Positions 37,646 through 50,894 of a DNA stretch of 64,000 nt are shown here, piece after piece; position 1 is the stretch's first letter, and every line of letters begins with the position of its first letter. The position numbers and the translations under genes are program-made. The notes below the pieces were generated by a model, which worked only from the letters and a program-made list of their open reading frames with translations, was not told the DNA's origin and did no database searches. Source of the stretch: Escherichia coli (GTDB lineage Bacteria > Pseudomonadota > Gammaproteobacteria > Enterobacterales > Enterobacteriaceae). Location: the NCBI GenBank assembly GCA_009729775.1, contig GCA_009729775.1_4081.1, one strand, 5' to 3'.

Positions 37646-37703
37646 TTTGTTTCTCTCTCTCTGTGTTGGTATAGATACATAATACTAAAACATTTGAGTA
37701 CTG

Positions 37704-37958
37704 TCAACGTGATATTAGTTTTATTTTTTTATTGTATTGTTGGTGTTCATATAGATTAATTTTTCCAGTACTCTCGATCACTATTCTATTGTTAGTGTCT
37801 ACATCGATAACACGTAGTTTCCCGTTGCTTAACTTCCTAGGCAATAGACTACCATTAATAAACTCATTAGCAAGCTGTACGGCCTTTGTGATGATTCTCT
37901 GTGGTGCTTTATAGTGTACCCGCAAGATATTATCTTTAGATAGTTGTACCTTCATCAT
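37704..37958 (-). CDS. hypothetical protein
   Basis: 84 aa basic ORF. Confidence 0.5.
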   Translation of the reverse strand: MMKVQLSKDNILRVHYKAPQRIITKAVQLANEFINGSLLPRKLSNGKLRVIDVDTNNRIVIESTGKINLYEHQQYNKKIKLISR

Positions 37959-37973
37959 TTTAGTTTATCCTAT

Positions 37974-37998
37974 AAAAAAGGCGGGAACTGAACCCGCC
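37974..37998 (-). terminator. rho-independent terminator
   Basis: GGCGGG-aactgaa-CCCGCC hairpin followed by U-tract on minus strand, after stop of 38022..38426. Confidence 0.55.
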
Positions 37999-38021
37999 GT
38001 GTTGTTAGTACTGCAAAGTTA

Positions 38022-38417
38022 TTAGATAACCTGGCGGCGTTTACTGTATACTGTTACACGGTTTCCTTTACGGTCATGACGGATCTCTTTCTGGTTACGA
38101 ATCAGTTCACTTGGACGCTTAAGGTTTGCCAGGTGATCCGCGTGAGTCCATGCATTACTATTCACTTGTACTTGAATATCAGAACCTTCCAAGAAGTCAT
38201 CTTGAGCGTTCAGTACTTCAGCCAGTTCTTGAGCTTTCTTCAGTTCTGCTTCAGTAAGTACTGGTTCAGGTGAATTCACAATATCAGAGATCTCTTTGAA
38301 CTGTACCGCCCAGCGTTGTCCTTTCGGTGCATCTTTGCCCATGTCTTTAAATGTTTCACCTTCTTCACGGGCAACGATGCGAGCTTGTTCACGGGTAGCG
38401 AAGAATTTAGTAATCAT
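38022..38417 (-). CDS. hypothetical protein, paralog of 50213..50479
   Basis: shared FATREQARIVAREEGETFKDMG and HDRKGNRVTVYS segments. Confidence 0.6.
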   Translation of the reverse strand: MITKFFATREQARIVAREEGETFKDMGKDAPKGQRWAVQFKEISDIVNSPEPVLTEAELKKAQELAEVLNAQDDFLEGSDIQVQVNSNAWTHADHLANLKRPSELIRNQKEIRHDRKGNRVTVYSKRRQVI

Positions 38418-38516
38418 GGTGTACATCCTATTAGTTAAGTTAATTAGTACTACAAGTTAGAGTCTATTATAAAGTACTATCTGGGTAATGTCAAATAGTA
38501 CTTTAAATGGATTCTA

Positions 38517-38840
38517 TTACATGTCTTTCTTACGTTTTACATCGTAGTAACGAACTGTAATTTCTTTGTTGATCTCTTCCTCAATTCTGTGTAGTACTTT
38601 CTCTTTCGGGTTGAAACCTATTACAGTTTCTTTAATGATCTCCAAGCCCGTGTATTCGCCTTGTGTACCGTAACCGTAAGTAAAGGTTTCATGTCCCAGG
38701 TCTTCCCAGCGGTCACCAATCAATGCAGACACGTAGCATGAGTGGTAAGTATTGCCGTGGCTATCAGTCCACCGATTAACTTTAATGTCAAAGGAAGTTA
38801 CAATTTTCATTTCTACTTTCTGGGTAAGGATCATAGCCAT
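38517..38840 (-). CDS. hypothetical protein, paralog of 45141..45485
   Basis: shared GNTY, YGYG and C-terminal VKRKKD motifs. Confidence 0.6.
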   Translation of the reverse strand: MAMILTQKVEMKIVTSFDIKVNRWTDSHGNTYHSCYVSALIGDRWEDLGHETFTYGYGTQGEYTGLEIIKETVIGFNPKEKVLHRIEEEINKEITVRYYDVKRKKDM

Positions 38841-38861
38841 TTTAATTTCTCTCTTTTAGTT

Positions 38862-38927
38862 AGGAGGGGAACCATTCCCCTGCCTTGATGTAAACTATTA
38901 TACAGTACTAAGATACTTTGTCAATAC
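38862..38927 (-). promoter_or_regulatory. early promoter cassette (TTGACA..TATAAT) and 5' hairpin
   Basis: reverse complement of intergenic region. Confidence 0.5.
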
Positions 38928-39129
38928 TTATTTGTTTTCTTTTCGTAATTTCTTTTCAGCTTCAACTACATTCTTATTTGTGCAAACTACTTCATCGGAT
39001 AAATCTAACTTCCATCCAGACAGGGGTTTGGTTTGTTTCTTTGCTGCTTTGTTCGCTTTCATGATGTTTCCTTTTTAATTAAGATGTAAACTATTATACA
39101 GTACTAAGATACTTTGTCAATCTATTTTA

Positions 39130-39330
39130 TTAGATAGTTTCCCATTTCATGTTACCCGCTTTACGCTGTGAAACAGGAATAAACATGTTATTAATGTTAC
39201 TAATATAACCGACCTGTAAGTCACGCTGTGAACCATATGCCCGACTTGCTGCATTTTTAGCACCGCGTTCTGATTTATAAACGCCGCTGGATACTGTAAA
39301 GCCTACTACACCGAAAGTAAAATGTTTCAT
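39130..39330 (-). CDS. hypothetical protein
   Basis: 66 aa ORF; two tandem promoters upstream. Confidence 0.5.
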   Translation of the reverse strand: MKHFTFGVVGFTVSSGVYKSERGAKNAASRAYGSQRDLQVGYISNINNMFIPVSQRKAGNMKWETI

Positions 39331-39524
39331 TTTGTATTCCTCTTTGTGGTTGATGTAAGTATTATACTCGTTTACTTTCTATTGTCAATCTTTTTTATCA
39401 GGGGAGTTTTTCGTATGTCTTACTCCTGGACTACTTAACGGGGTTACTTGTTTCGTTCCCCGTCCTGATGTAAAACATTATACTTGATTCTAAGTACAAT
39501 GCAAGTACTTTTTAAAAATAGTTT

Positions 39525-39689
39525 TCACTTACTCATATTAACAGGCTTAAACGGTGGCAATGTAAGATCATGCGGGGTTAAACTGTCATGCTTTGCCCAC
39601 ATACCAGAATCCCTACGGAATAATACCTTATTGTTTTTTATACGATAAAAGTTACCATTATCAGTGTTTTTATACCATACCATTTTCAT
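39525..39689 (-). CDS. hypothetical small protein (not in ORF track, below 60 aa)
   Basis: 54 aa ORF MKMVWYKNTDNG... with TTGCAA-16-TATAAT and GGAG RBS upstream. Confidence 0.4.
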   Translation of the reverse strand: MKMVWYKNTDNGNFYRIKNNKVLFRRDSGMWAKHDSLTPHDLTLPPFKPVNMSK

Positions 39690-39759
39690 TTACTCCTGGT
39701 TATGTCGTTATTAAACATTATACGGGGTTATAGATAGTTTGCAATTAGTTTTTCAGTAC

Positions 39760-39870
39760 TAGCCACCAGCATATAATAGATACATTTATGCACCCTGTGG
39801 GCTGATTTGTTTCTATGCGTATATAATAGCAAAGGGACTGACCGGAGTCAATCCCTTTTTTAATTCTTTT
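39760..39870. repeat. repeated intergenic composite element, copy 3
   Basis: as above. Confidence 0.6.
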
Positions 39871-40019
39871 TAAACTTGTTTTGGGTTGCGATATGTGATA
39901 GCGTTCGGGTACATTTGTTTAATGTTATTCCATGCCTGGTTAACATTGTAACCACTTGAGCGAATCAGTTGGTTACTACCGACACCTTGAAACACTACTT
40001 CGAATAAGAATTCTTTCAT
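39870..40019 (-). CDS. hypothetical small protein (below track cutoff)
   Basis: about 49 aa ORF MKEFLFEVVFQG...; ATGA overlap with upstream ORF. Confidence 0.3.
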   Translation of the reverse strand: MKEFLFEVVFQGVGSNQLIRSSGYNVNQAWNNIKQMYPNAITYRNPKQV

Positions 40020-40189
40020 GCTTTCACCTCGCGATCTGCTTTACCTTTACGCCACGCTGTTGCTAATTGTTCGCGTTGCCATAAGTCGAGTGATACGTAA
40101 AGTTTTGCATTATCACCCTTCGGATACTCGCCAGTAGTACCAATCCGATAAAACAGATCTTTCAGTACTGATAATTCCACCTGGATCAT
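40016..40189 (-). CDS. hypothetical small protein (below track cutoff)
   Basis: about 57 aa ORF MIQVELSVLKDL... Confidence 0.3.
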   Translation of the reverse strand: MIQVELSVLKDLFYRIGTTGEYPKGDNAKLYVSLDLWQREQLATAWRKGKADREVKA

Positions 40190-40297
40190 TGTATTACTCC
40201 TGATTGTGTTAGTACTTCTACGATGGCATGAATGATCATAAGTACAGCTAACACAACAATCATCGGATTCATTTGCATAAGCTGTACTCCTTATATA

Positions 40298-40510
40298 TTA
40301 ATCTTTCAGCCAATGATCTTGAATGAATTTTTCACAGAATCCCTGTTTCATAGATTCTAACAGGCGTTCACGGTGAGCGGCGGCATATTGCTCAGTACTA
40401 TGCGTTACGCCAGGTTGATAACGTGAAACACCGTCTGGTCCGATATATTGAACATCCCACGGTTTTTCGTTAGTATCAGACCATTTACGAACGATTAGTT
40501 GACCTTGCAT
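40298..40510 (-). CDS. hypothetical protein
   Basis: 70 aa ORF with promoter cassette and AGAGGA RBS. Confidence 0.55.
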   Translation of the reverse strand: MQGQLIVRKWSDTNEKPWDVQYIGPDGVSRYQPGVTHSTEQYAAAHRERLLESMKQGFCEKFIQDHWLKD

Positions 40511-40527
40511 GTTTCTTTCCTCTTAGT

Positions 40528-40587
40528 GGGGAGAATCATTTCTCCCCTTCATGTAACTTATTATACAGTACTAGATTACATTGTCAA
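40528..40587 (-). promoter_or_regulatory. early promoter cassette (TTGACA-16-TATAAT) and hairpin GGGGAGAA-tcat-TTCTCCCC
   Basis: -35 at 40582-40587, -10 at 40560-40565, hairpin 40528-40547 (coordinates on plus strand). Confidence 0.6.
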
Positions 40588-40593
40588 TAGTTT

Positions 40594-40917
40594 TTATTCA
40601 CCTTGTTTGAATATAGTTTTCTCCATTGATTCCATGATTGCAACCAATACAGCATGGATCTCACTTAACGCGGCATCACTAAAAGCATTAATGAATAGGC
40701 AATCATTCTCGCGAATATTTTTAATGTACTTATCAGCAGTGGTTGCGAATTCATTCAACGGCAGATCAAATGCTTTATCCCATAATGGATGGCGTAACTG
40801 TAACAGTACTGGATTATCACGGTCACCAGGTGAGAAAGTGCCTGTAATGAAACATACACCAGGGATACTTTCGAATTGACAACGAACTTCTTTTGTGATA
40901 GTAGTATGAATATACAT
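40594..40917 (-). CDS. hypothetical protein
   Basis: 107 aa ORF. Confidence 0.55.
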   Translation of the reverse strand: MYIHTTITKEVRCQFESIPGVCFITGTFSPGDRDNPVLLQLRHPLWDKAFDLPLNEFATTADKYIKNIRENDCLFINAFSDAALSEIHAVLVAIMESMEKTIFKQGE

Positions 40918-40944
40918 TTATTTTTATCCTCTATTAAATTAATA

Positions 40945-41133
40945 TTACAGTTTATGAATCAATTCTTTATCCAAGCGATAGCGAACATTATTGATTGTAA
41001 CTGCATTGTTTTTAATGCTACGCTGTACAGGTCCACCAGCAATAACAAACGTTGCCTTATTGCCCCGAACGATGATAGCACTTCCAGGATTACCGAAATC
41101 ATCTTGTACTAAAATGCTTGATAAGTTTTGCAT
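40945..41133 (-). CDS. hypothetical protein
   Basis: 62 aa ORF. Confidence 0.45.
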   Translation of the reverse strand: MQNLSSILVQDDFGNPGSAIIVRGNKATFVIAGGPVQRSIKNNAVTINNVRYRLDKELIHKL

Positions 41134-41149
41134 TTGTCTTTCCTTGTAG

Positions 41150-41208
41150 TGGGGAGAACTATTCTCCCCTTCATGTAAACAATTATACAGTACTGAAAAC
41201 TAATTGCA
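41150..41208 (-). promoter_or_regulatory. early promoter cassette (TTGCAA..TATAAT) and hairpin
   Basis: reverse complement of intergenic region. Confidence 0.5.
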
Positions 41209-41212
41209 AGTA

Positions 41213-41569
41213 CTATGATAAAATCATTATAGGATATTCACTATCAATCAGTACTTCAAAACCAAAACTTTCATACCATTCTTTAAGATTAAATGAGTTA
41301 TCTTCTCCCGTATCGCATTCTAAGATGATACAATCTGAATCATCGGCCGCATCAATAAAGGCATTCATTAATTCAGTACCTTCACCGTTACCGCGATTAT
41401 CGGGATCAACATAAAGAGAATCAATAAACGCTACACGATCATAATCAAGATCTGGTGCAACAATGCCACGTTTAACAAACCAGTACTGCAATTGTGCTAC
41501 TTTGCCTTGTACTTGATAGCCAGTGATCTCACCATTGTCTGTAGTACGCGTGATATGTTGTATACCCAT
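41213..41569 (-). CDS. possible GNAT-like acetyltransferase (weak)
   Basis: segment VAFIDSLYVDPDNRGNGEGTELMNAFIDAA resembles GNAT acetyl-CoA binding motif. Confidence 0.35.
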   Translation of the reverse strand: MGIQHITRTTDNGEITGYQVQGKVAQLQYWFVKRGIVAPDLDYDRVAFIDSLYVDPDNRGNGEGTELMNAFIDAADDSDCIILECDTGEDNSFNLKEWYESFGFEVLIDSEYPIMILS

Positions 41570-41632
41570 GATTTCAATCCTCAGTTAAGATATAAAATAT
41601 TATACACTAACTAACAGTACTGTCAATACTTT

Positions 41633-41890
41633 TTATCTCATAGATCTATGCCAACAATTACGCGGTTGACGTTTAAAAATACTATCATGATCCTCCTGGC
41701 AAGTTATGCAGTACTTACATCCCTTAACGGCCTGGCGACGTTTCTCAGGGATTATATCACCGCAGTCGAGGCAATGTATCAGTGATTCTATTTGTGCGTT
41801 AATTTGCGTTCTAGCGTGGTTAACAGCGGCCTGAATCACTGCGTTAATCTCGTCTTGCTCGGCCCCATCTTTCGTGAATCCTACAGCCAT
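41633..41890 (-). CDS. TraR/DksA-family C4 zinc-finger protein
   Basis: CLDC-x17-CITCQ (C-x2-C-x17-C-x2-C) signature in 85 aa protein. Confidence 0.6.
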   Translation of the reverse strand: MAVGFTKDGAEQDEINAVIQAAVNHARTQINAQIESLIHCLDCGDIIPEKRRQAVKGCKYCITCQEDHDSIFKRQPRNCWHRSMR

Positions 41891-42119
41891 TATTTTAACC
41901 TCATTATAAAAATACTATAGTACTGTAATGCGACAATAATATTACTTGTTCTTACTTTTTCCAATCCACATGATACAACATATTCATCCCCATATGTTCG
42001 AAACGAAACACCATGAAAATTTTTATACACTTGCACTTCTAATCATAACCTTTTGTCTAACCAACTGCGTAGAATTATACTACTTTACGCAAATTGATCA
42101 AGTATTGATCAGATCATTT

Positions 42120-42200
42120 TTTGATCAATATTATACAGTTACATTTGTGCACCCTATGGGTTAGTGCCTTGTGTCCGGCTTATGTACTTATTATACAGTA
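42120..42200. repeat. variant element with GCACCCTATGGG core and CCGGCTT hairpin
   Basis: similar to 50110-50200. Confidence 0.4.
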
Positions 42201-42221
42201 CTTGATGATATTGTCAATAGT

Positions 42222-42419
42222 TTATTTTAATTTTTTTCTGTCATTGATTAATGCTTTCAGTACTATACTAATAACTTGCAATGATTCATCAATGACTATA
42301 AAATTATTTTCTTTCATTAGATGATAGTTACCATTGATTGTATATTCTAATGAGTACTGTTTACGTTTAATTTTTGATAATGTATCAATTTGTTTTTGTA
42401 CTGATTTCATGCTAATCAT
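42222..42419 (-). CDS. hypothetical protein
   Basis: 65 aa ORF. Confidence 0.45.
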   Translation of the reverse strand: MISMKSVQKQIDTLSKIKRKQYSLEYTINGNYHLMKENNFIVIDESLQVISIVLKALINDRKKLK

Positions 42420-42526
42420 TGTTAAACGTCCTGTAATGCATTCTAACGAGATAAACGGTTTAGTACTGGCATTGTATAGGGTAAATGATTAAAGCCCACC
42501 AGCGTTAACCAGTGGGCTATAATCTT

Positions 42527-42670
42527 ACATCTTGCGGATAATCTTAACAGTATCTTTCACCGATTTACCGTCTTGCTGACATTGTTCGATCATCGCGTAT
42601 TGTTCTGCGGTCAGATCCTCGCCAGTTTTTGCCAGTACTGCGTCGATGAATGAATCCAGTGCGATCATTT
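42527..42670 (-). CDS. hypothetical small protein (below track cutoff)
   Basis: 47 aa ORF MIALDSFIDAVLAK... Confidence 0.3.
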
Positions 42671-42767
42671 TATTTCTCTCTTAGGTTAAGTTAACTACTG
42701 TTGATAAAAGTTATTATACAGTACTATCAAACATTGTCAATAGATTTAATAGTACTGGTAATATATT

Positions 42768-42947
42768 TTAGCGGTAATCGTCGTATGCTTTATTAACCTG
42801 GCGAATGTAACTTTCAAAGGCTTCGTCTACCGTTTCATACTCCCGAACATAATCACCATAGGAAACTACATACATCCCTTTTTGATCTTCAAACGTCATG
42901 ATGATAGAATCCAGTCCGATGATTTCAGTTTTTGCGATAATAGCCAT
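42768..42947 (-). CDS. hypothetical protein
   Basis: start at MAIIAKTEI; repeated promoter cassette upstream. Confidence 0.5.
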   Translation of the reverse strand: MAIIAKTEIIGLDSIIMTFEDQKGMYVVSYGDYVREYETVDEAFESYIRQVNKAYDDYR

Positions 42948-43038
42948 TTTAGTATTCCTTAAATTAATATGCGTTGTCTTGATAAAAGTTATTATGCCAG
43001 TACTATCAAACGTTGTCAATAGTACTGTGATAATATTT

Positions 43039-43251
43039 TTAGTTAATGATAGTCAGTGTAAAATTGTAATCCCCTGCCTGGTATAGTACTTTATCGCCGA
43101 ACGTGCCAACACGTTTCATATTGCAATAGATACCCATAACATTTTTTACATCTTTGATATTCCGAACGCCAGTGATATCCTTGTTGAAATTTTCATGATC
43201 AGAAAATAAAACTTGTTTTGCATTTTTCAGTACAGTGCAGATATTAGCCAT
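43039..43251 (-). CDS. hypothetical protein
   Basis: 70 aa ORF. Confidence 0.5.
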   Translation of the reverse strand: MANICTVLKNAKQVLFSDHENFNKDITGVRNIKDVKNVMGIYCNMKRVGTFGDKVLYQAGDYNFTLTIIN

Positions 43252-43270
43252 TTCGATTTCTCTCTGTTAG

Positions 43271-43338
43271 TAGGGAAGTACTGTTACTTCCCGTGCCTTG
43301 ATGTAAACTATTATACAGTACTATAATCTATTGTCAAA
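43271..43338 (-). promoter_or_regulatory. early promoter cassette (TTGACA-16-TATAAT) and hairpin GGGAAGTA-acag-TACTTCCC
   Basis: reverse complement of intergenic region. Confidence 0.5.
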
Positions 43339-43351
43339 CTATTTTTTAATA

Positions 43352-43693
43352 TTATTCAAAATCTTCTGGACCGGACTGATAATCATCCTCACCGTATGCA
43401 CTTTCTAACTTCTCGCCAGTGTAATCATCAGTTAGTGAGTCATCCTCATAGTTCACGTCTACGCCCGTGATGTAAAACTGGCTATCGTCTGGATCATTGA
43501 AATTAATTTTCTGAATGTTTACAATAACTGTATTGATACCCAGGACACAGCCATCAGCCGTTACAAAGTACTGATATTTTTCACATCCACCACTATTGAA
43601 ACCGTAATTGATTTCGGCCCGACCATCATTTAAACGCAGTGCCTGAGCGATGATTTCGTTTTCAAAGTTAGATTGAGCAATTGCAATAGTCAT
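43352..43693 (-). CDS. hypothetical acidic protein
   Basis: 113 aa ORF. Confidence 0.55.
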   Translation of the reverse strand: MTIAIAQSNFENEIIAQALRLNDGRAEINYGFNSGGCEKYQYFVTADGCVLGINTVIVNIQKINFNDPDDSQFYITGVDVNYEDDSLTDDYTGEKLESAYGEDDYQSGPEDFE

Positions 43694-43789
43694 GATTCGT
43701 TTCCTTATTACCAGGGGAAACCGTTTCCCCTTGCGATGTAAAACATTATACGCCTATTGATATAGTTTGCAAGTACTTTTTATCAAATA

Positions 43790-43920
43790 CTTTAAAATAG
43801 TTTTCAGTACTCAATCATTATACAATAGATACACTTATGCACCCTGTGGGCTAGTGAGCTATCTCTCAATGAATACATAATAGCAAAATGGCTGACCGAA
43901 GTCAACCACTTTTTTTCATT
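43790..43920. repeat. repeated intergenic composite element, copy 4 (more diverged hairpin)
   Basis: as above. Confidence 0.5.
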
Positions 43921-44054
43921 TATTTTTAGCTTTTAGAATCGCCGCCTTTCGCGTCATGCCTTGCTTGATGTACTCCTTTACTTTCGCTTTACGTGCTTTC
44001 GCTTTATCTGCTTTCGTTTTAGGAGTACTGTAAATTAAACCGTTAGGATTCATT
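43917..44054 (-). CDS. hypothetical small basic protein (below track cutoff)
   Basis: 45 aa Lys-rich ORF MNPNGLIYSTPKTKADKAKARKAK... Confidence 0.3.
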
Positions 44055-44139
44055 TAAATCACCATAAAGAATAGATAGGTTACTAACAATGCCGCCAGTA
44101 CTGCACCGACCAGGGCCGAACTATAGTAAGCTAATGATT

Positions 44140-44292
44140 TCATTTTTTAGCCTGAAAGTAATGTTTAATTTGTGCGGCGGTCAGTGCACAATTACGCAGG
44201 AAGTTTTCTGTATAACTTTTACGAGTACTGAAAGAGTACTGACCTTTCCCGTTACCGATAGTAACATCAAACCGAGCGTTATATTGTTTCAT
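44140..44292 (-). CDS. hypothetical small protein
   Basis: start at MKQYNARFD; track MVLP extension is hairpin. Confidence 0.45.
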   Translation of the reverse strand: MKQYNARFDVTIGNGKGQYSFSTRKSYTENFLRNCALTAAQIKHYFQAKK

Positions 44293-44309
44293 TTTGTTTC
44301 TCCTAGTAT

Positions 44310-44382
44310 CGGGGAGAACCATTCCCCCCCTCTATGTAAACAATTATACAGTACTGAAAACTAATTGCAAGTACTTTCTAAG
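44310..44382 (-). promoter_or_regulatory. early promoter cassette (TTGCAA..TATAAT) and 5' hairpin
   Basis: reverse complement of intergenic region. Confidence 0.5.
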
Positions 44383-44567
44383 TAATGTTTATAAGCTGAA
44401 TCAACCACTCTTTCGATAACATACGCTAACGGCACGTATCCAACTACATGACTACAATAAAAAGGACTACGATTAGAATCATCGTATGCAAATACTTTTT
44501 CAGGATCTGCATCAATCACATACATATTAACCTTTAAGATGTCTATCTTATCCTGTACAGTAAGCAT
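44361..44567 (-). CDS. hypothetical protein
   Basis: start at MLTVQDK; upstream part of track ORF overlaps another small ORF in a different frame. Confidence 0.45.
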   Translation of the reverse strand: MLTVQDKIDILKVNMYVIDADPEKVFAYDDSNRSPFYCSHVVGYVPLAYVIERVVDSAYKHYLESTCN

Positions 44568-44571
44568 ATTA

Positions 44572-44742
44572 CGCCGCCTTATCAGTACTGGCAACCGGAC
44601 GGATACGGGCCATTTCATGGGCTTGTTCCACACTGTAACGCTCATAAAGGCGGCATTCTTCCGGTGTAGGAACAGCATCAATACGTTTCATTGGTTTAAT
44701 GATGCTTTCAACTTCATTCAGTACTTGATTAACGTTCATGGT
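44572..44742 (-). CDS. hypothetical small protein (below track cutoff)
   Basis: 56 aa ORF MNVNQVLNEVES..., stop 2 nt before next ATG. Confidence 0.35.
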
Positions 44743-44790
44743 ATAATCCCCAATATAAGCGGCCTAAATCGACCGCTAACGATGTTTTGA

Positions 44791-45060
44791 TTAATAGGTG
44801 TATGGTTGACGCTCAAACAATGATTGCACGTTGTACGCCCCGCTAATGGGCTTTGCTGGCAAATCAATTTTATATTGTTCACGCTTAAAAATAATAAAAC
44901 GGCAATTGTTTTTAACATCAAAATTGATTGAACGTTCCAATAGCTTTCCTTCGTGTACAAATACAAGATAACCGCTTGCTACTTGTTTTGTAGTACTGGT
45001 TGCAACCATTGACCGACGAACATGAGTACCTGCATCGATTAAAGTACTGATATTTTTCAT
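44791..45060 (-). CDS. hypothetical protein
   Basis: 89 aa ORF. Confidence 0.5.
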   Translation of the reverse strand: MKNISTLIDAGTHVRRSMVATSTTKQVASGYLVFVHEGKLLERSINFDVKNNCRFIIFKREQYKIDLPAKPISGAYNVQSLFERQPYTY

Positions 45061-45140
45061 TTTACTATCCTCTTAATTTGATTTAATTTCTTTCCCCTAT
45101 GCAGACACTATATCAAAGTATCTGCATAAAGTAAAGCTAA

Positions 45141-45485
45141 TTAAAGATCTTTTTTGCGTTTAACATCAGTTACCGAACTGTAAACAGTGATATTATTGTC
45201 ACGGCAAAAACGGGAAAGATAAGAACCGCGTAAAAACTCTTTATCTTCCATATTAATAACCTTGCTAAATTCTTCCATTGCTACAGTGTCAAAGTGATCC
45301 CCGTATCCATATTGGAACGGCACGTTTACTACTTCAATAAAATTACCATCAATTTCTACGTCTACACTTAAAGAGAAATAAGTGTTACCATATGAAGCCT
45401 GGAACCAACGCCGAGCGGCAATATGTACAACTTCAACAGAAGACAGGTTGATATTTTGTGCTGAGATAGTGTTGATGTTAGCCAT
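45141..45485 (-). CDS. hypothetical protein, paralog of 38517..38840
   Basis: shared motifs, C-terminal VKRKKDL. Confidence 0.6.
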   Translation of the reverse strand: MANINTISAQNINLSSVEVVHIAARRWFQASYGNTYFSLSVDVEIDGNFIEVVNVPFQYGYGDHFDTVAMEEFSKVINMEDKEFLRGSYLSRFCRDNNITVYSSVTDVKRKKDL

Positions 45486-45566
45486 TTTAATTTCCTCTTA
45501 GTTGTCTTGATAAAATCTATTATGCCAGTACTATCAAACTATGTCAATAGTACTGTGATAATAATT

Positions 45567-45779
45567 TTACTTACTTTGCTTTGATGCTTTATGTTGTGCA
45601 ACTGCCATCACTACATCAGCACGAACAAAGTTAGCAACCGTATCAGTATAATATTTGATTGCATCGTCAATATCTGCGAACATCCGATACATTCCGCACC
45701 ATGATACTTTATAACCCGCTTTCACTTGTTCCAGTTTAACCAGTGAATTGTTTACTTTGATTTTTGTAATGATAGCCAT
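45567..45779 (-). CDS. hypothetical protein
   Basis: 70 aa ORF, N-terminus MAIITK similar to 42768..42947. Confidence 0.5.
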   Translation of the reverse strand: MAIITKIKVNNSLVKLEQVKAGYKVSWCGMYRMFADIDDAIKYYTDTVANFVRADVVMAVAQHKASKQSK

Positions 45780-45862
45780 TTTTGTTTCCTCTTAGTTGTC
45801 TTGATAAAATCTATTATGCCAGTACTATCAATCTATGTCAATAGTACTGTGATAATAATTTT

Positions 45863-46006
45863 ACTTACTTTTTGCTTTCTTTATTGCTTCCACCTGGTCG
45901 GCCCACTCTTTACCCCATACTTGAGCGTTATAGTGATACTGACAAAGAGCAACGCCCCGTTTCAAACCAGTGATAGATTTTTTACCACATTGACAAGTTT
46001 TCATTT
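45863..46006 (-). CDS. hypothetical small Cys-containing protein (below track cutoff)
   Basis: 47 aa ORF MKTCQCGKKS...CQYH with its own promoter-hairpin cassette and RBS. Confidence 0.4.
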
Positions 46007-46020
46007 TTAGTTTCCTCTTA

Positions 46021-46086
46021 GTGGGGAGAATCATTTCTCCCCTTGATGTAATGTATTATACTTTATCCGATTTACTTTGCAAGTAC
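46021..46086 (-). promoter_or_regulatory. early promoter cassette (TTGCAA..TATAAT) and hairpin GGGGAGAA-tcat-TTCTCCCC
   Basis: reverse complement of intergenic region. Confidence 0.5.
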
Positions 46087-46089
46087 TTT

Positions 46090-46317
46090 TTAGTTTAATT
46101 CATCCAGGCATAAGATACGATCTACGCCGAGATCCGTTAAGCTAATGGTTGGCACTTGATAGGTTTCAATGTATTCTACACTAGCCCACTGACCGAACTC
46201 ATTCACCGCCCAGGTATTCATTGCAAAATGTAATTCCGCACCTTTCTTATTAGTAATTACAGCAACAGTAGAAGAATTGCCAGTAGTACCAGATACGCGA
46301 GTGATTACGATAGCCAT
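46090..46317 (-). CDS. hypothetical protein
   Basis: 75 aa ORF. Confidence 0.5.
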   Translation of the reverse strand: MAIVITRVSGTTGNSSTVAVITNKKGAELHFAMNTWAVNEFGQWASVEYIETYQVPTISLTDLGVDRILCLDELN

Positions 46318-46750
46318 TGTTTTGATTCCTATTCAGTAGTTGATGTATGTATTATGTCAGTACTTAAAACTATTGTCAAACTATTTTTTAAAGACTATCT
46401 ACGATAGCTGCCGTTTCAATAATAGACTTACCTTTTTTTGAACATGCAATAACTGCTTTAAATTCCTTTGATGACCATTCTTTTTTACTGCATACTAACA
46501 TTACTTGCATAGTGAAACAATCCAGTTCATAAGTATTCATCTTTAAATCCTCAGTTAGTTAAGGTGTCTTGCCTTGATGTAACTAATTATACGCCTTTCT
46601 CTTAATCGTGCAAGTACTTTTTATTACTTTTTGCAAAATACTTTAAACGCTCTCAATCGCATTCTAACGGCCTTAACTCCACCAGCTAGGGCGATGCATC
46701 AGATAATCAGTTTAATGCGTTAGAATCGATTCTATGAGGTGCTGACGGTC

Positions 46751-46786
46751 TGGAATGCAATAAAAACAAAAAAGCCCACTGCTTAT
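46751..46786 (-). terminator. rho-independent terminator
   Basis: AGCCCAC-N8-GTGGGCT hairpin with long U-tract on minus strand after stop of 46816..47313. Confidence 0.6.
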
Positions 46787-46815
46787 AGTGGGCTAGTGAT
46801 TCAGTACTTTAAATG

Positions 46816-47298
46816 TTATGCTTCAATTTTGCGGTGAGATTCGATCCATTCCTCGCGAGTCATACCGCTTTCTTTGATAGCATCCAGTACTACCGCAATG
46901 CAGTTACCGCGTACAGGAATCAAATGTTCTTCCCCGTTATCAAGGACAACCGTAACACGTTCTTGAATCCATTTTTTAGGCTTAGATTCCGGCTTATCTT
47001 CACCGTACTTAACCGCCAGGGCTTTATGTGCCATTTCAATAACCACTTCCAGATCTAAACCAGACACCGCCGCCTGAATACTTTCTATTGTTGCTTGCAG
47101 TTCTGCTTCACGGGCTTTTTTCTGTTCTTCCAGTTCTGCTACCTTTTTGGCTTGTAGTTCTTTCGCTTCACTGTAAGCAATGTTAAAATTGTTGCGTACT
47201 GCTTTCATGGTATCATTATCCAGGTCAGCCAGCAATTCAGCAGCAATCACAGTATCGTTAGAAATCAGTGCTTTCAGAAATGATTTTACATTAGCCAT
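46816..47298 (-). CDS. hypothetical protein, predicted coiled-coil
   Basis: start at MANVKSFLK; Ala/Glu/Lys-rich heptad-like segment. Confidence 0.55.
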   Translation of the reverse strand: MANVKSFLKALISNDTVIAAELLADLDNDTMKAVRNNFNIAYSEAKELQAKKVAELEEQKKAREAELQATIESIQAAVSGLDLEVVIEMAHKALAVKYGEDKPESKPKKWIQERVTVVLDNGEEHLIPVRGNCIAVVLDAIKESGMTREEWIESHRKIEA

Positions 47299-47482
47299 TT
47301 TATAAATCCTCAATTAAAGTTTAAGTTAGTTTATCAAAGTTTGTTTGACGTGTCCAGTTTTTCATTCGACTTACTGGCGGTCTACTTAATGTTCCCCGTC
47401 TTGATGTAATACATTCTACGCTTTTCCCTGGTAATGTCAACTACTTTTTTAAAACTATTTTCAAAGTATACCAGTACTACGA

Positions 47483-47520
47483 TAATACAAAAACAAAAAA
47501 GCCCACTGTTTAAGGTGGGC
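47483..47520 (-). terminator. rho-independent terminator
   Basis: GCCCAC-N8-GTGGGC hairpin with U-tract on minus strand after stop of 47539..47838. Confidence 0.6.
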
Positions 47521-47538
47521 TAGTGATTCAGTACTAGA

Positions 47539-47838
47539 TTATAAACAGTTAATTACTCCGGTGTGCGTTACTTTCTCAGTATCCATCACAGTGACCGAAC
47601 CGCGTTTAGTACTGGCATCATAATAAATTGTTGTGCTACCGTTTTTGTCTTCTTCATGGAACGGGCCGTTTTTAAATGCTTCCGGCTGGATCTCTAAATC
47701 CTTTAATACAATCTCGCCAGTTCTTTCATCGGTCATTGCAACAGTGCACTGAATGAATTTTTCACTACTTACATCTAATGACGCATTAACAGCGAAAGAG
47801 GAAACAGATAAAGCCAGGGCGATGATTGCAATTTTCAT
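47539..47838 (-). CDS. secreted protein with N-terminal signal peptide
   Basis: MKIAIIALALSVSSFAVNA signal-like N-terminus. Confidence 0.55.
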   Translation of the reverse strand: MKIAIIALALSVSSFAVNASLDVSSEKFIQCTVAMTDERTGEIVLKDLEIQPEAFKNGPFHEEDKNGSTTIYYDASTKRGSVTVMDTEKVTHTGVINCL

Positions 47839-47922
47839 TTGATTATCCTTAGTTACCAGGGGGAACCGCTCCCCCTTGCTATGTAAAATATTATACAGTA
47901 CTAAAAACTAATTGCAAGTACT

Positions 47923-48159
47923 TTATGATTTTTTATAAAACATTTCGGCAGTGATATTTTTACCCGTTGGCTGTACTTTATCCAGAATTTTTTGATGCCC
48001 TGGCCGTCCAAATGAATATGATCCGTAAACCGTAAACCAGTAGTTACCCTCAGTGTTTACATGTACAGCACAATAGGGAACGCCCCGCGATTCATCACTA
48101 GTAAAGTGTGCTACCGTTCCCGTTACATTCGAAGTCGTTGATTTGATTTGTTCAAGCAT
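47923..48159 (-). CDS. hypothetical protein
   Basis: 78 aa ORF. Confidence 0.5.
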   Translation of the reverse strand: MLEQIKSTTSNVTGTVAHFTSDESRGVPYCAVHVNTEGNYWFTVYGSYSFGRPGHQKILDKVQPTGKNITAEMFYKKS

Positions 48160-48266
48160 TTTCTTATTCCTTAGTTACCAGGGGAACCGCTCCCCTATGC
48201 AAAACATTATACGCGTTTAAAAACTATTGTCTAGTATTTTAATAAAAAGTATTTGAAAAATAGTTG

Positions 48267-48396
48267 TTGACAAGTGCATCCAGTACTGGCATAATACTTA
48301 CATAAAGACGAGATAGTCACTAACCCACAGGGTGCATAGATCCGTCTATTAAATGATTCAGTACTGCAAAATAAAGGGGATCAATTGATCCCCTCT
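48267..48396 (+). ncRNA. candidate small RNA unit: plus-strand promoter (TTGACA-17-CATAAT), conserved CCCACAGGGTGCAT core, hairpin
   Basis: promoter at 48267-48295, no ORF, ends at palindromic hairpin; core shared with other copies. Confidence 0.25.
48365..48396. terminator. palindromic hairpin, possible bidirectional terminator
   Basis: GGGGATC-aatt-GATCCCC with T-rich flanks on both sides. Confidence 0.4.
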
Positions 48397-48399
48397 GTA

Positions 48400-48621
48400 T
48401 TACTTAGTAAGGTATAAACAGAAGTCACCTTTATTTGCTACGCCGCCAGTGTAACGCGATGAATAGTTAGAAACGTCCTGGACTTCTGCTATTACCAGTG
48501 TATCATCATTCAATTCGTCGCAGAAGCAAACGGCTGGATCTTTTACGCCGATATTGTCGGCATGTTCCCGCATAGATTTAACCAGTGCTTCAAGTTGGGA
48601 AAGAGTAGTGATATTAGCCAT
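48400..48621 (-). CDS. hypothetical protein
   Basis: start at MANITTLSQ; track MVLP extension is hairpin. Confidence 0.5.
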   Translation of the reverse strand: MANITTLSQLEALVKSMREHADNIGVKDPAVCFCDELNDDTLVIAEVQDVSNYSSRYTGGVANKGDFCLYLTK

Positions 48622-48708
48622 TTTATTTTCCTCATTACCAGGGAGAACCATTTTCTCCCCTCTATGTAAACCATTATACAGTACTAAAAACTAATTGCAA
48701 GTACTTTT

Positions 48709-48912
48709 TTAATTTAATTGCTTTAAAACATACTCAAAGACACCACGCACATCATTGATCATCGCCTGGCGGTTAGCAGGTAACGCATCAGGATCGCCAC
48801 TATCCCAGGCATTGATAAAACTCCCCAAATCATGATAGATTTTATTCTGTAAGCCGATCAACTGCAATTCTTTTTCTTCAAGCTCTTTGATACGTTCAAT
48901 TAAATCACTCAT
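48709..48912 (-). CDS. hypothetical protein
   Basis: start probably at MSDLIERIKE. Confidence 0.5.
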   Translation of the reverse strand: MSDLIERIKELEEKELQLIGLQNKIYHDLGSFINAWDSGDPDALPANRQAMINDVRGVFEYVLKQLN

Positions 48913-48929
48913 TATATAATCCTTAGTAC

Positions 48930-49211
48930 TTAATTGTAAGATCCGCAACGGTCGCAGTAGTGCCCCTCGTCATCGTCAACGAATTGACCAACGAAATTAT
49001 CTACTTTCGCTTTCAGGTTATTATAATCGTTTTCTACTTCCTTTAAACGCTTCTGGTAGTATTCCAGTGCTTTAAGATATGCCGCATCAGTAGTTTTCTC
49101 CTGCATAGCTAAATTCATGCCACGCGTTTCATCATAAAGCCAATAACCATCAGTACATTGGCTAATAGACAATGACTTGCTTAACACTGTATAGTTAATT
49201 ACTTTGCTCAT
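48930..49211 (-). CDS. hypothetical protein
   Basis: start probably at MSKVINYTV; C-terminal CDRC pair. Confidence 0.5.
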   Translation of the reverse strand: MSKVINYTVLSKSLSISQCTDGYWLYDETRGMNLAMQEKTTDAAYLKALEYYQKRLKEVENDYNNLKAKVDNFVGQFVDDDEGHYCDRCGSYN

Positions 49212-49301
49212 TAGATAACCCTCAGTAAAGGCGGGAACCACTCCCCGCCTCGATATAAAGTATTATACGCTTTTAAACTTAGTATGCAAGTACTTTTTAA
49301 A

Positions 49302-49913
49302 TTAATATGCGATAGATTCTACTACATCGTCGATAACGTTAAATTGATATTCGTTACCCTCAATCAGTCCTACAATGTTTTCAGTAGTAAACTGGTCTTC
49401 ATAAGCATTTTCTAAATCACGGTACAGCTTACAAGATAATTCTCGGATAGTATCAGTCAGTAAGTTTTCCAGATCCTCAGCTAATGCAGCCTGTTTTACA
49501 GTTAAATCAGTGTAGCGAGTATCAACGCAACCGCCTACCGTGTTTTCGTGAGCGTAGCGTGATTGGGAACGTTCTACACTCATTTCCAAATCATCTTCGT
49601 TCAACAGGTGACGGATGGAACGATATTTCGTTAACGCCTTAACCTTGCGTAAAAACTTCTCAGCGTCAACGTGGTCAGTACTGATTGATGCACCGTCACC
49701 TTGCGACCAAAAACCACTGTATTGCAATTCAGCTTCATCTATGCCGTATTCTGGCAGTACTGTTTCTTTATAGTATTCCAGTACTGATTCAGCAAAGAAA
49801 TTATCCTCACTTGCACGTTCCCGATCCCGAACCAGTTCGATAGCCGCCGCTTGTTGTTCTGCGTTCAGTTCAGAAAAATCCATAACGAAAGTAGTAGTAG
49901 TGATAGTTTTCAT
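49302..49913 (-). CDS. hypothetical acidic protein
   Basis: 203 aa ORF; promoter TTGACA-16-TATAAT upstream. Confidence 0.6.
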   Translation of the reverse strand: MKTITTTTFVMDFSELNAEQQAAAIELVRDRERASEDNFFAESVLEYYKETVLPEYGIDEAELQYSGFWSQGDGASISTDHVDAEKFLRKVKALTKYRSIRHLLNEDDLEMSVERSQSRYAHENTVGGCVDTRYTDLTVKQAALAEDLENLLTDTIRELSCKLYRDLENAYEDQFTTENIVGLIEGNEYQFNVIDDVVESIAY

Positions 49914-50109
49914 TTTGTAACCCTCATTCAGTAGTTGATGTAAGTATTATACGCTTTTAAAAACAATTGTCAAACTATTTTATCAGGGGAGTTTTTCGTG
50001 TGCCTTACTCCTGGGCTACTTAACGGGAAGTTACTTATTTCGTTCCCCGTCCTGATGTAAAACATTATACGCCTTTAAACATAGTTTGCAAGTACTTTTT
50101 GAAAATAGT

Positions 50110-50200
50110 TTTTATCTCTTTCATATAGATACATTCCCGCACCCTATGGGCTATCGCCTTGTGTCCGGCTTGTAAGTATTATCTCACTAAGCCGGATAAC
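50110..50200. repeat. variant element with GCACCCTATGGGCTA core and CCGGCTT...AAGCCGG hairpin
   Basis: similar to 42120-42200. Confidence 0.4.
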
Positions 50201-50212
50201 GGTCAAGTACTT

Positions 50213-50479
50213 TTATTCAAGTACTGCAATCTTTTTAGTACTGTATACAGTAACGCGGTTGCCCTTTCGGTCGTGCTTTATTTCTACCACTCGACGCGAT
50301 ACACTATCAGGACTTTTTAAAACCGATCTCCAGTACTGAATTGATCGGGCTGTACTTTGCTTTACTACGGCCCAACGTTTACCACGTTCAGAATGTACGC
50401 CCATATCTTTAAACGTCGCCCCGTCCTGGCGTGCGGCAATCCGAGCAAGTTCACGCGTTGCAAAGTATATAATATTCAT
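50213..50479 (-). CDS. hypothetical protein, paralog of 38022..38417
   Basis: start at MNIIYFATREL; shared FATRE..FKDMG..HDRKGNRVTVYS. Confidence 0.6.
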   Translation of the reverse strand: MNIIYFATRELARIAARQDGATFKDMGVHSERGKRWAVVKQSTARSIQYWRSVLKSPDSVSRRVVEIKHDRKGNRVTVYSTKKIAVLE

Positions 50480-50561
50480 GCTGTTACCCCTATCGTTGTT
50501 GTATAAAAGAAATCTATTATAAAGTACTATCACCGTGCAATAGTACTTTTAATCTATTCTC

Positions 50562-50885: not shown

Positions 50886-50894
50886 TTATTAAAC

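What the first reader, a model, noticed from the sequence alone, without database searches (positions are those of the whole stretch)
38022..50479. Dispersed paralog pairs within the early region
38022..38417 and 50213..50479 share FATRE[QL]ARI.AR..G.TFKDMG...RWAV and HDRKGNRVTVYS. 38517..38840 and 45141..45485 share GNTY, YGYG and a C-terminal VKRKKD. Duplicated genes separated by 7-12 kb support dispersed duplication in this region.
Basis: seen in the sequence. Interest (0 to 1): 0.4.

Follow-up and report, generated by a model that had tools for sequence, protein, structure and literature searches.

The report
Duplicated and swapped early phage genes
Both gene pairs are truly related small early genes of a jumbo E. 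coli phage, but only one pair looks like a duplication inside this phage lineage; the other results from swapping one gene version for a very different one at a fixed slot, which is ordinary modular phage evolution apart from a possible new antitoxin-like family.

Summary
A1 (38022-38417) and A2 (50213-50479) are 34% identical (BLASTP E=8e-20). B1 (38517-38840) and B2 (45141-45485) are 31% identical (E=8e-11). Each pair falls into a single PHROG family. The window comes from an Asteriusvirus jumbo coliphage, and the region maps inside the ~21-kb direct terminal repeat, which is packed with sigma70-consensus promoter cassettes.

Pair A fits an old duplication within the lineage: every Asteriusvirus has both copies and related genera have one. 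A1 holds the ancestral position, directly upstream of a ParE-like toxin-domain gene (37704-37958). That pairing is conserved in at least 7 jumbo-phage lineages, so family A may be an antitoxin-like partner and A2 an orphan copy.

Pair B is not a duplication in this genome. B2 groups with genes of ~150-kb Stephanstirmvirinae phages (79-84% aa; 200/200 bootstraps). It occupies a two-form slot that in about three quarters of Asteriusvirus genomes holds a different gene (121Q gp282, 34% identical to B2). The swap is limited to the coding sequence, with near-identical flanks.

Homology breakpoints across the region fall at gene boundaries (41 of 45), as in the PeSL cassette shuffling of T4-type phages. 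The function of both families is unknown.

The parts
38022..38417 (-). A1, 131 aa (the ORF extends to 38426 from an upstream ATG). It is a family A (phrog_8127) gene at the ancestral syntenic position. It has an N-terminal ~42-aa beta-alpha-beta-beta module, a long linker and a basic C-terminal hairpin motif HDRKGNRVTVYSKRR.
   Evidence: orthologs 121Q gp304 and phAPEC6 gp504c at 96%; dN/dS 0.17-0.26
38466..38494 (-). A1 promoter, TTGACA-17-TATAAT (12/12 match to consensus).
37980..37998 (-). Terminator-like hairpin (GGCGGG..CCCGCC followed by T6) between A1 and the ParE-like gene. No separate promoter was detected for the downstream gene.
   Evidence: the GAP32 record annotates a rho-independent terminator at the equivalent place
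37704..37958 (-). ParE-like toxin-domain gene (84 aa), immediately downstream of A1.
   Evidence: Pfam PF24732, E=3e-10, 40.4 bits against a cut-off of 24.4. It is the only such gene in the window. It lies adjacent to the family A gene in at least 7 jumbo-phage lineages.
38517..38840 (-). B1, 107 aa, a family B (phrog_6246) gene restricted to and conserved in Asteriusvirus.
   Evidence: (37 records, 94-98% identical)
38897..38924 (-). B1 promoter, TTGACA-16-TATAAT (12/12), followed by a 5'UTR G/C hairpin.
45141..45485 (-). B2, 114 aa, a family B gene of the Stephanstirmvirinae (phi92 gp231 / rV5-like) type, occupying the two-form slot.
   Evidence: AF2 model pLDDT 86.7
45165..45500 (-). The segment that is unalignable with 121Q, i.e. 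the replaced coding sequence. The 5' junction lies just after the shared promoter. The 3' junction lies at the last eight codons (VKRKKDL*), which are identical at the DNA level in both alleles.
45519..45547 (-). Promoter of the B2 slot (TTGACA-17-CATAAT with a TG extension). It is native Asteriusvirus sequence, 97-100% identical to 121Q, and nearly duplicated upstream of the genes starting at 45779 and 42944.
50213..50479 (-). A2, 88 aa, a family A copy with the shortest linker of the family. It has no ParE-like neighbour. Its ortholog is the third gene from the physical genome end in fEgEco12.
50516..50540 (-). A2 promoter-like element (TTGCAC-13-TATAAT). It is homologous to the A1 promoter but has a shortened spacer.
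33090..52911 (.). Region equivalent to the 20,993-bp direct terminal repeat of fEgEco12. The boundaries are approximate and set by homology. It is an array of single-gene promoter / stem-loop / ORF cassettes.
   Evidence: PMC13070987

Best explanation
The four ORFs are real, maintained small genes. They lie in the terminal-repeat early region of an Asteriusvirus jumbo phage, where almost every gene is a self-contained cassette: a strong sigma70 promoter, a G/C hairpin, an RBS and an ORF. Recombination at these repeated regulatory cassettes and at conserved gene ends moves, duplicates and replaces single genes. Pair A came from one old cassette duplication inside the Asteriusvirus lineage. A1 stayed at the ancestral site, upstream of a ParE-like toxin-domain gene. 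A2 moved near the genome end, lost most of its linker and evolved faster. Pair B was not made by duplication in this genome. B1 is the native gene. Its likely in-lineage paralog is the gp282-type gene that most Asteriusvirus genomes carry at the second slot. In this genome and about a quarter of its relatives, that slot instead holds a deeply divergent family member (B2) whose closest relatives are in Stephanstirmvirinae phages of E. coli. Function is inferred, not shown. Family A is probably an antitoxin-like binding partner of the ParE-like protein, with a folded N-module, a flexible linker and a C-terminal binding hairpin, and A2 is an orphan copy. Family B is an uncharacterised, widespread phage early protein, plausibly a host-takeover or counter-defence factor, and its two-form slot reflects selection for alternative alleles.
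For: Genome identity and position: 90-93% nt identity to Asteriusvirus genomes; fEgEco12 position 1 maps to window ~52911 and the repeat end to ~33090.

Cassettes: 10 perfect and many near-perfect sigma70 promoters on the coding strand (85 sites against 53+/-7.5 in shuffles; per-gene upstream sequences); hairpins in 10/10 folded 5'UTRs.

Modular exchange: of 45 homology breakpoints against 121Q, phAPEC6 and fEgEco12, 24 are intergenic and 17 lie within 30 nt of a gene's 3' end. Only 2 are internal, against 57% expected.

Pair A: two copies in every Asteriusvirus record, one in RaK2, GAP32 and four metagenomic contigs. A1 and A2 types are monophyletic in 143/200 bootstraps, with A2 on a long branch. 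Their upstream regions are reciprocal best matches. The A-then-ParE-like order is conserved in 121Q, RaK2, K64-1, RCIP0023, phiKp_21, GAP32, fHe-Yen9-04, Serratia BF, pEa_SNUABM_12/47, Hallingskeid, L013 and L015.

Pair B: B2 is 79% identical to phi92 gp231 and 80-84% to Phapecoctavirus proteins, but 34% to 121Q gp282, which sits in the same slot between 86-100% identical neighbours. B2 groups with the Stephanstirmvirinae clade in 200/200 bootstraps, B1 with the gp282 type in 170/200, and B1 with B2 in 0/200. B2 is nested within that clade. The junctions are precise to the coding sequence. A B2-type gene also occurs behind a different cassette in contig L005.
Against: The trees are neighbour-joining on 88-110 columns. 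Support is only 72% for A1+A2 and 85% for B1+gp282, and A2's long branch could mislead the tree.

The direction of the B-slot replacement is not settled. B2 vs phi92 has dS~1.5. Five other genes in this region are also 58-76% identical to the phi92 gp225-234 block. So the B2 type could be as old in Asteriusvirus as the gp282 type.

The A1/A2 promoter similarity margin is small (score 34 against 26-32).

The antitoxin idea has no direct support. Family A matches no known antitoxin family. A terminator-like hairpin separates A1 from the ParE-like gene. Family A genes occur without a ParE-like neighbour in L016, L017 and the Vequintavirinae.

No transcription data show that these genes are early.
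Confidence: 0.7

Rival explanations
1. Both pairs arose by dispersed duplication within this genome's lineage and then diverged.
For: Both pairs are significant homologs in the same 12-kb region, on the same strand, inside similar cassettes. Paralog families are abundant in the window and in related jumbo phages (PMC5259590; PMC7247149).
Against: B2 is far closer to proteins of a different phage subfamily (79-84%) than to B1 (31%) or to the gene occupying the same slot in 121Q (34%). B1 and B2 were never sisters in 200 bootstraps. The slot exists in two forms with sharp junctions at the ends of the coding sequence.
Confidence: 0.1
2. No duplication occurred in this lineage. All four genes were acquired independently from a shared pool of small early genes that circulates among coliphages, and A1/A2 are xenologs too.
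For: The region shares at least six genes with the phi92 gp225-234 block and exchanges genes cassette by cassette. Family A N-modules occur in Vequintavirinae and other phages. The A1+A2 grouping has only 72% bootstrap support.
Against: A2-type proteins were found only in Asteriusvirus-size genomes. A2 shares both the N- and C-terminal modules with A1, and its nearest relatives are A1-type proteins. Outgroup genera have a single copy at the A1 position. The A1 and A2 promoter regions are reciprocal best matches.
Confidence: 0.12
3. The B slot is not a replacement. The gp282 type and the B2 type are one orthologous gene that diverged extremely fast under diversifying selection.
For: They occupy the same slot, share the same promoter and have identical last eight codons. 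Counter-defence genes can evolve quickly.
Against: Within each allele class the protein is conserved (95-98% identity). dN/dS is low where divergence is enough to measure it (0.14-0.19 against L005 and phi92). B2 is 79% identical to phi92 gp231, with 75-82% nt identity confined to the coding sequence, which in-place divergence cannot explain. No intermediates were seen among 37 records.
Confidence: 0.04
4. The similarities are chance or compositional matches between non-coding ORFs.
For: The ORFs are short and lie in AT-rich DNA. No function is known.
Against: Pairwise E-values are 8e-20 and 8e-11. The families have hundreds to more than 1000 members. The AF2 models are confident. The genes are under purifying selection. 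Each has its own promoter and RBS.
Confidence: 0.01

Closest known systems
PeSL (promoter-early stem-loop) mediated modular shuffling in the hyperplastic regions of T4-type phages (Arbiol et al. 2010, PMC2839356; Comeau et al. 2014, PMC4122927)
   Same: Both have strong sigma70-consensus early promoters combined with G-tract/C-tract stem-loops, repeated upstream of small ORFan genes in a plastic region. In both, insertions, deletions and replacements between close relatives break at these cassettes (paper text).
   Different: This is a different phage group (Rak2-like jumbo phage, genus Asteriusvirus), and the cassettes lie in the direct terminal repeat. The hairpin sits in the 5'UTR downstream of the -10 and mostly lacks a T-run. 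AGTACT motifs flank the hexamers. At the B slot the 3' junction lies inside a conserved C-terminal coding motif and not in a cassette. Promoter and terminator activity and mini-circles were not tested.
Type II toxin-antitoxin modules of the RelE/ParE superfamily (relBE / parDE / dinJ-yafQ layout; Gerdes 2025, PMC11980606)
   Same: A small gene (A1) lies directly upstream, on the same strand, of a gene with a ParE-like toxin domain (PF24732). The downstream gene has no promoter of its own. The upstream protein has a folded N-module, a flexible linker and a conserved C-terminal motif, as many antitoxins do. The pairing is conserved down to ~40% identity.
   Different: Family A matches no known antitoxin family or DNA-binding fold. 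A terminator-like hairpin sits between the two genes. The module is in a lytic jumbo phage's terminal repeat, not on a plasmid or chromosome. Toxicity and neutralisation are untested. A2 and the Vequintavirinae homologs have no ParE-like neighbour.
Paralog families in Rak2-like jumbo phages (CBB: 22 paralogous ORFs, PMC5259590; phAPEC6 gene arrays, PMC7247149)
   Same: Small hypothetical genes of the presumed early region are multiplied within the genome. RpoD-like promoters are concentrated over them, partly on the terminal repeat.
   Different: Those papers list paralogs without separating duplication from replacement. Here one pair is shown to be an allelic (xenologous) replacement.
phi92 gp231 / rV5-like and PVP-SE1 gp197 hypothetical proteins (phrog_6246)
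   Same: B2 is 79% identical to phi92 gp231. PVP-SE1 gp197 and Av-05 0032 are family members.
   Different: None of them has a described function. B1 and the gp282 type form a separate Asteriusvirus-restricted branch.

Membership tests
phrog_8127 (family A) and phrog_6246 (family B) | Significant full-length match to the family profile | tested here: met
   A1 1.7e-37 and A2 1.4e-26 to phrog_8127; B1 3.6e-37 and B2 6.4e-43 to phrog_6246
Recent intragenomic (segmental) duplication | Nucleotide-level similarity between the copies, extending into the flanks | tested here: not met
   The coding sequences are not alignable beyond the conserved motifs. pS is 0.79 and 0.85. The downstream flanks are unrelated. 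Only a weak A1/A2 promoter similarity was found.
In-lineage paralogs (pair A) | The copies are each other's closest relatives compared with homologs from other lineages, and outgroups have a single copy | tested here: met
   143/200 bootstraps. There is a single copy in RaK2, GAP32 and L013-L017. Support is moderate only.
In-lineage paralogs (pair B) | The copies are each other's closest relatives compared with homologs from other lineages | tested here: not met
   B1+B2 as sisters 0/200. B2 groups with Stephanstirmvirinae in 200/200 and B1 with the gp282 type in 170/200.
PeSL-type regulatory cassettes | A sigma70-consensus promoter repeated upstream of small ORFs in a plastic region | tested here: met
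   10 perfect and more than 20 near-perfect sites on the coding strand; 30 on the minus strand against 4 on the plus strand across the window
PeSL-type regulatory cassettes | An associated stable stem-loop with G and C tracts | tested here: met
   10/10 folded 5'UTRs give a 7-10 bp G/C hairpin, z-scores -0.9 to -3.3
PeSL-type regulatory cassettes | Indel and replacement breakpoints between close relatives coincide with the cassettes | tested here: met
   41 of 45 breakpoints are intergenic or within 30 nt of a gene's 3' end; 2 are internal against 57% expected. The breakpoints are not all independent.
PeSL-type regulatory cassettes | Demonstrated promoter and terminator activity; formation of mini-circles | not testable with these tools
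   These require reporter assays and PCR on phage DNA.
Type II TA module, RelE/ParE superfamily (A1 + 37704-37958) | A toxin gene with a RelE/ParE-fold domain | tested here: met
   PF24732 ParE_like, 40.4 bits against a cut-off of 24.4. The K64-1 ortholog is annotated as a YafQ-like ribonuclease toxin.
Type II TA module, RelE/ParE superfamily (A1 + 37704-37958) | An adjacent small partner gene on the same strand, with the pairing conserved across lineages | tested here: met
   They are adjacent in at least 7 jumbo-phage lineages. The partner is absent next to family A genes in L016, L017 and the Vequintavirinae.
Type II TA module, RelE/ParE superfamily (A1 + 37704-37958) | Co-transcription as a bicistronic operon | tested here: inconclusive
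   No promoter was found in the 63-nt gap, but a terminator-like hairpin lies there.
Type II TA module, RelE/ParE superfamily (A1 + 37704-37958) | The partner belongs to a known antitoxin family or DNA-binding fold | tested here: not met
Type II TA module, RelE/ParE superfamily (A1 + 37704-37958) | Toxicity of the toxin and its neutralisation by direct binding of the partner | not testable with these tools
It needs co-folding and experiments.

The most novel reading that the evidence does not exclude
Family A is a previously unrecognised antitoxin-type family that neutralises a ParE/RelE-fold protein encoded in the terminal repeat of Rak2-like jumbo phages. The Asteriusvirus-specific orphan copy A2, and the stand-alone N-modules in other phages, would then act as decoy antitoxins against host toxin-antitoxin defences. 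The two-form family B slot would be a balanced counter-defence polymorphism, exchanged between unrelated coliphage groups through shared promoter cassettes.
Probability: 0.15. Interest if true: 0.65.

Novelty: new member of a known kind. Interest (0 to 1): 0.35.

Why it matters
As stated, the finding is ordinary: jumbo phages are full of paralogous small genes. Three things give it modest value.

1. It shows that sequence-level "paralog pairs" in phage early regions can hide two different processes, duplication and replacement of one allele by a distant homolog. Synteny and a tree can tell them apart.

2. It extends PeSL-like cassette shuffling, described for T4-type phages, to the terminal repeat of Asteriusvirus, and suggests exchange with unrelated coliphages that use the same kind of cassettes.

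3. It flags a conserved pairing of an unknown small protein family with a ParE-like toxin-domain gene in lytic jumbo phages. This is a cheap, testable lead on phage-encoded toxin-antitoxin-like modules and possible counter-defence.

Tried and rejected
- Function by sequence: Pfam, NCBIfam and PADLOC on the four proteins, and Pfam on all aligned members, gave no consistent hits. Profile searches against PDB sequences also found nothing.
- P0207 (630 aa, six repeats) was dismissed as a false family A hit. It carries a different GKHKGRTFADL repeat.
- A general A-B functional linkage was considered, because B1 precedes A1 here and A precedes B in PVP-SE1, Av-05 and TH18. It does not hold in RaK2, GAP31, GAP32, pEp_SNUABM_01 or four metagenomic contigs, so it is kept only as a side note.
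- A recent transfer of B2 from phi92-like phages was rejected because dS is about 1.5.
- A second ParE-like gene near A2 was searched for and not found.
- Literature searches for the PHROG identifiers and for PF24732 found nothing specific.
- The first tree attempt with Biopython timed out.

Full report
**What is there**

- A1, 38022-38417: 131 aa from the ATG used in annotated orthologs. The ORF extends to 38426.
- A2, 50213-50479: 88 aa.
- B1, 38517-38840: 107 aa.
- B2, 45141-45485: 114 aa.

BLASTP gives A1 vs A2 34% identity, E=8e-20, with a ~45-residue linker present only in A1. B1 vs B2 gives 31% identity, E=8e-11. Each pair belongs to one PHROG family: phrog_8127 for A and phrog_6246 for B. 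In an all-against-all comparison of 337 window ORFs the partners are each other's only hits, but the window also holds many other paralog families. The DNA of the pairs is not alignable outside the conserved motifs, and synonymous sites are saturated (pS 0.79 and 0.85). All four genes show dN/dS of 0.10-0.26 against orthologs wherever divergence is sufficient.

**Genomic setting**

The region is 90-93% identical in DNA, in a mosaic pattern, to Asteriusvirus jumbo coliphages such as PBECO4, 121Q, phAPEC6 and fEgEco12. The physical left end of fEgEco12 maps to window ~52,911. The end of its 20,993-bp direct terminal repeat, which was confirmed by restriction digests (PMC13070987), maps to ~33,090. 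The whole finding therefore lies in the terminal-repeat equivalent. The A2 ortholog is the third gene from the genome end.

The coding strand carries ten perfect TTGACA-N16/17-TATAAT promoters and many near-perfect ones: 85 sites against 53+/-7.5 in shuffles, and 30 strong sites on the minus strand against 4 on the plus strand across the window. Extracting the upstream sequences shows that almost every gene is its own cassette. The cassette consists of AGTACT-flanked -35 and -10 hexamers, a TTACATC motif, a G-tract/C-tract hairpin, an RBS and the ORF. Ten out of ten folded 5'UTRs give the hairpin.

The neighbours include a DksA/TraR zinc-finger protein, a GNAT acetyltransferase and a weak kinase-like protein. 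The CBB paper read the equivalent promoter-rich stretch of short ORFs as the early host-takeover region, and listed 22 paralogous ORFs (PMC5259590). "Early region" is thus plausible but inferred.

**Pair A**

Every Asteriusvirus record has two family A places, or four where both terminal repeats are included. RaK2, GAP32 and four metagenomic relatives have one. The family is small: 69 cluster representatives among 1.84 billion proteins.

A neighbour-joining tree on 88 columns puts A1-type and A2-type proteins together, to the exclusion of homologs from other phages, in 143/200 bootstraps. A2 sits on a long branch. Their upstream regions are reciprocal best matches among 32 cassettes. The margin is small, and the A2 promoter has a 13-nt spacer.

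A1 keeps the ancestral position. The gene immediately downstream (37704-37958) is conserved next to the family A gene in RaK2 (ORF354), GAP32 (031), L013 and L015. So pair A is best read as an old duplication in the lineage, after which the relocated copy lost most of its linker. Moderate bootstrap support and long-branch effects are the caveats.

**An unexpected partner for A1**

The conserved downstream gene matches Pfam PF24732, "ParE-like toxin domain", at 40.4 bits against a cut-off of 24.4 (E=3e-10). Its counterparts in RaK2, GAP32 and L013 match too. Comparing the tblastn positions for A1 and for this gene shows same-strand immediate adjacency in the following records, with protein identity falling to ~40%:
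- 121Q
- RaK2
- K64-1, where RefSeq calls the gene a YafQ-like ribonuclease toxin
- RCIP0023
- phiKp_21
- GAP32
- Yersinia fHe-Yen9-04 (g013, g014)
- Serratia BF
- Erwinia pEa_SNUABM_12 and pEa_SNUABM_47
- Hallingskeid

In a region that otherwise exchanges single genes freely, this persistence argues for functional coupling.

The layout is that of relBE/parDE-type modules, with the small partner upstream (background: PMC11980606). Several features fit:
- The downstream gene has no promoter of its own.
- Family A has a folded N-module, a linker of variable length and a conserved basic C-terminal hairpin. The AF2 model has pLDDT 83.4 but pTM 0.42, so the modules are well defined but their relative orientation is not.

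Against a simple toxin-antitoxin reading:
- Family A matches no known antitoxin or fold.
- A terminator-like hairpin lies between the two genes. GAP32 is annotated the same way.
- A2, L016, L017 and the Vequintavirinae homologs lack a ParE-like neighbour.

I rate "family A is an antitoxin-like partner" at roughly one in three.

**Pair B**

Family B is large: 1,022 proteins at E<=1e-3. It is spread over many phage groups and entirely unnamed. B1 is confined to Asteriusvirus and highly conserved there (37 records, 94-98% identical).

B2 is different. Only about 9 of those records carry it at 90% identity or more. Some 130 Stephanstirmvirinae-type records of ~150 kb carry proteins 60-90% identical to it, with 74-80% nt identity.

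Gene-by-gene comparison shows that B2 lies between genes 86-100% identical to 121Q gp281 and gp283. Yet 121Q gp282 in that slot is only 34% identical to B2 and 39% to B1.

Bootstrapped neighbour-joining on 122 sequences groups B2 with phi92 gp231 and its relatives in 200/200 replicates. It groups B1 with the gp282 type in 170/200, and B1 with B2 in 0/200. B2 is nested inside the clade whose other members with known context come from 140-155-kb genomes.

Base-level alignment places the window/121Q junctions just after the shared promoter (~45501) and at the last eight codons (45164; VKRKKDL*, identical DNA in both alleles). Similarity to phi92 is confined to the coding sequence. A B2-type gene also sits behind a different cassette in contig L005, and that cassette's hairpin matches phi92 intergenic DNA.

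Hence B1 and B2 are members of one family but not duplicates of each other in this genome. The slot exists in two forms, and this genome carries the Stephanstirmvirinae-type allele.

The direction and age of the replacement are uncertain. B2 vs phi92 has dS~1.5. Five other genes here are 58-76% identical to the phi92 gp225-234 block. Both allele classes may therefore be old, with the near-identical flanks reflecting ongoing recombination among Asteriusvirus genomes. Consistent with that, the window is 121Q-like at some genes and phAPEC6-like at others.

**Mechanism of dispersal**

There are 45 homology breakpoints between the window's 36.5-51.3 kb region and 121Q, phAPEC6 and fEgEco12. Of these, 24 are intergenic (27% expected), 17 lie within 30 nt of a gene's 3' end (8% expected), and 2 are in gene interiors (57% expected). 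The breakpoints are not all independent.

Together with the repeated promoter/hairpin cassettes, this matches PeSL-mediated modular shuffling as described for T4-type phages. There, sigma70-like early promoters plus G/C stem-loops upstream of ORFans act as recombination sites for insertion, deletion and replacement (PMC2839356; PMC4122927).

The differences here are the phage group, the location in the terminal repeat, the 5'UTR position of the hairpin, the AGTACT motifs, and one junction that uses a conserved coding motif. I found no paper describing this for Rak2-like phages, but the search library is incomplete.

**Function**

**Verdict**

The phenomenon is a new instance of known kinds of phage genome evolution: paralogy, and cassette-wise replacement by a distant homolog. 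It comes with one moderately interesting lead, the conserved pairing of family A with a ParE-like gene.

Noticed in passing
window 37704-37958 (-): This 84-aa gene has a ParE-like toxin domain (PF24732, above the curated cut-off). It lies directly downstream of A1, and the pairing is conserved in at least 7 Rak2-like jumbo-phage lineages. K64-1 RefSeq calls the ortholog a YafQ-like ribonuclease toxin.
   Followed up: partly
window 27700-33020 (-): About 25 tandem paralogous ORFs of ~70 aa (25-50% identical) begin right after the terminal-repeat-equivalent boundary (~33,090).
   Followed up: no
window 7709-18789 and 27383-27727 (-): There are further paralog families here: a ~150-aa family (13592-16978, plus 7709 and 9416) and a ~120-aa family (10496-18789, plus 27383).
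   Followed up: no
window 56118-63443 (+): Five to six consecutive paralogous genes of 360-450 aa (25-45% identical) lie on the opposite strand, beyond the strand switch.
   Followed up: no
whole window, densest at 32-56 kb: The palindrome AGTACT occurs 253 times against ~22 expected from base composition. It flanks the -35 hexamer and sits just before the -10 hexamer of the early promoters (..AGTACTTGCAA..AGTACTGTATAAT..).
   Followed up: partly
window 36500-51500 (-): Ten perfect TTGACA-N16/17-TATAAT promoters lie in this stretch. A 7-10 bp G-tract/C-tract hairpin was found in the 5'UTR of 10 out of 10 cassettes folded. The stems differ in sequence but stay complementary.
   Followed up: partly
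window 43039-51314 (-): Six genes (43039, 45141, 46090, 48930, 50562, 50895) are 58-79% identical to the contiguous phi92 block gp225-gp234, but are scattered and reordered here.
   Followed up: partly
window 42945-43030, 45486-45580, 45780-45870 (-): Three nearly identical ~90-nt promoter cassettes (TTGACA-17-CATAAT type) lie within 3 kb. They are ready-made substrates for deletion or duplication of the genes between them.
   Followed up: partly
window 38928-39062, 39525-39689, 40594-40917 (-): These three gene cassettes are absent from both 121Q and phAPEC6. The last is DUF7247 and is probably shared with fEgEco12 (a same-length gene, g033, at the collinear position). At the first, 121Q has a different gene (gp302) instead.
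   Followed up: partly
window ~52,000-52,911: The GC-skew sign change and coding-strand switch coincide with the position that is homologous to the physical left end of the fEgEco12 genome.
   Followed up: partly
L007 1992-2743 (PVP-SE1 gp198, gp197); L008 1983-2732 (Av-05); L011 2001-2733 (TH18): In Vequintavirinae, a family A gene lies directly upstream of a family B gene. This is the reverse of the B1-then-A1 order in Asteriusvirus. The adjacency is absent in RaK2, GAP31, GAP32, pEp_SNUABM_01 and four metagenomic contigs.
   Followed up: partly
window 36511-37152 (-): This 213-aa protein has sub-threshold protein-kinase matches and weak PD-T4-6 hits. It is conserved downstream of the A / ParE-like pair in four metagenomic contigs (39-45% identity).
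   Followed up: no
window 47539-47838 (-): This 99-aa protein has an N-terminal signal-peptide-like sequence. The fEgEco12 record annotates its ortholog as 'protein spackle'. It has no Pfam match.
   Followed up: no
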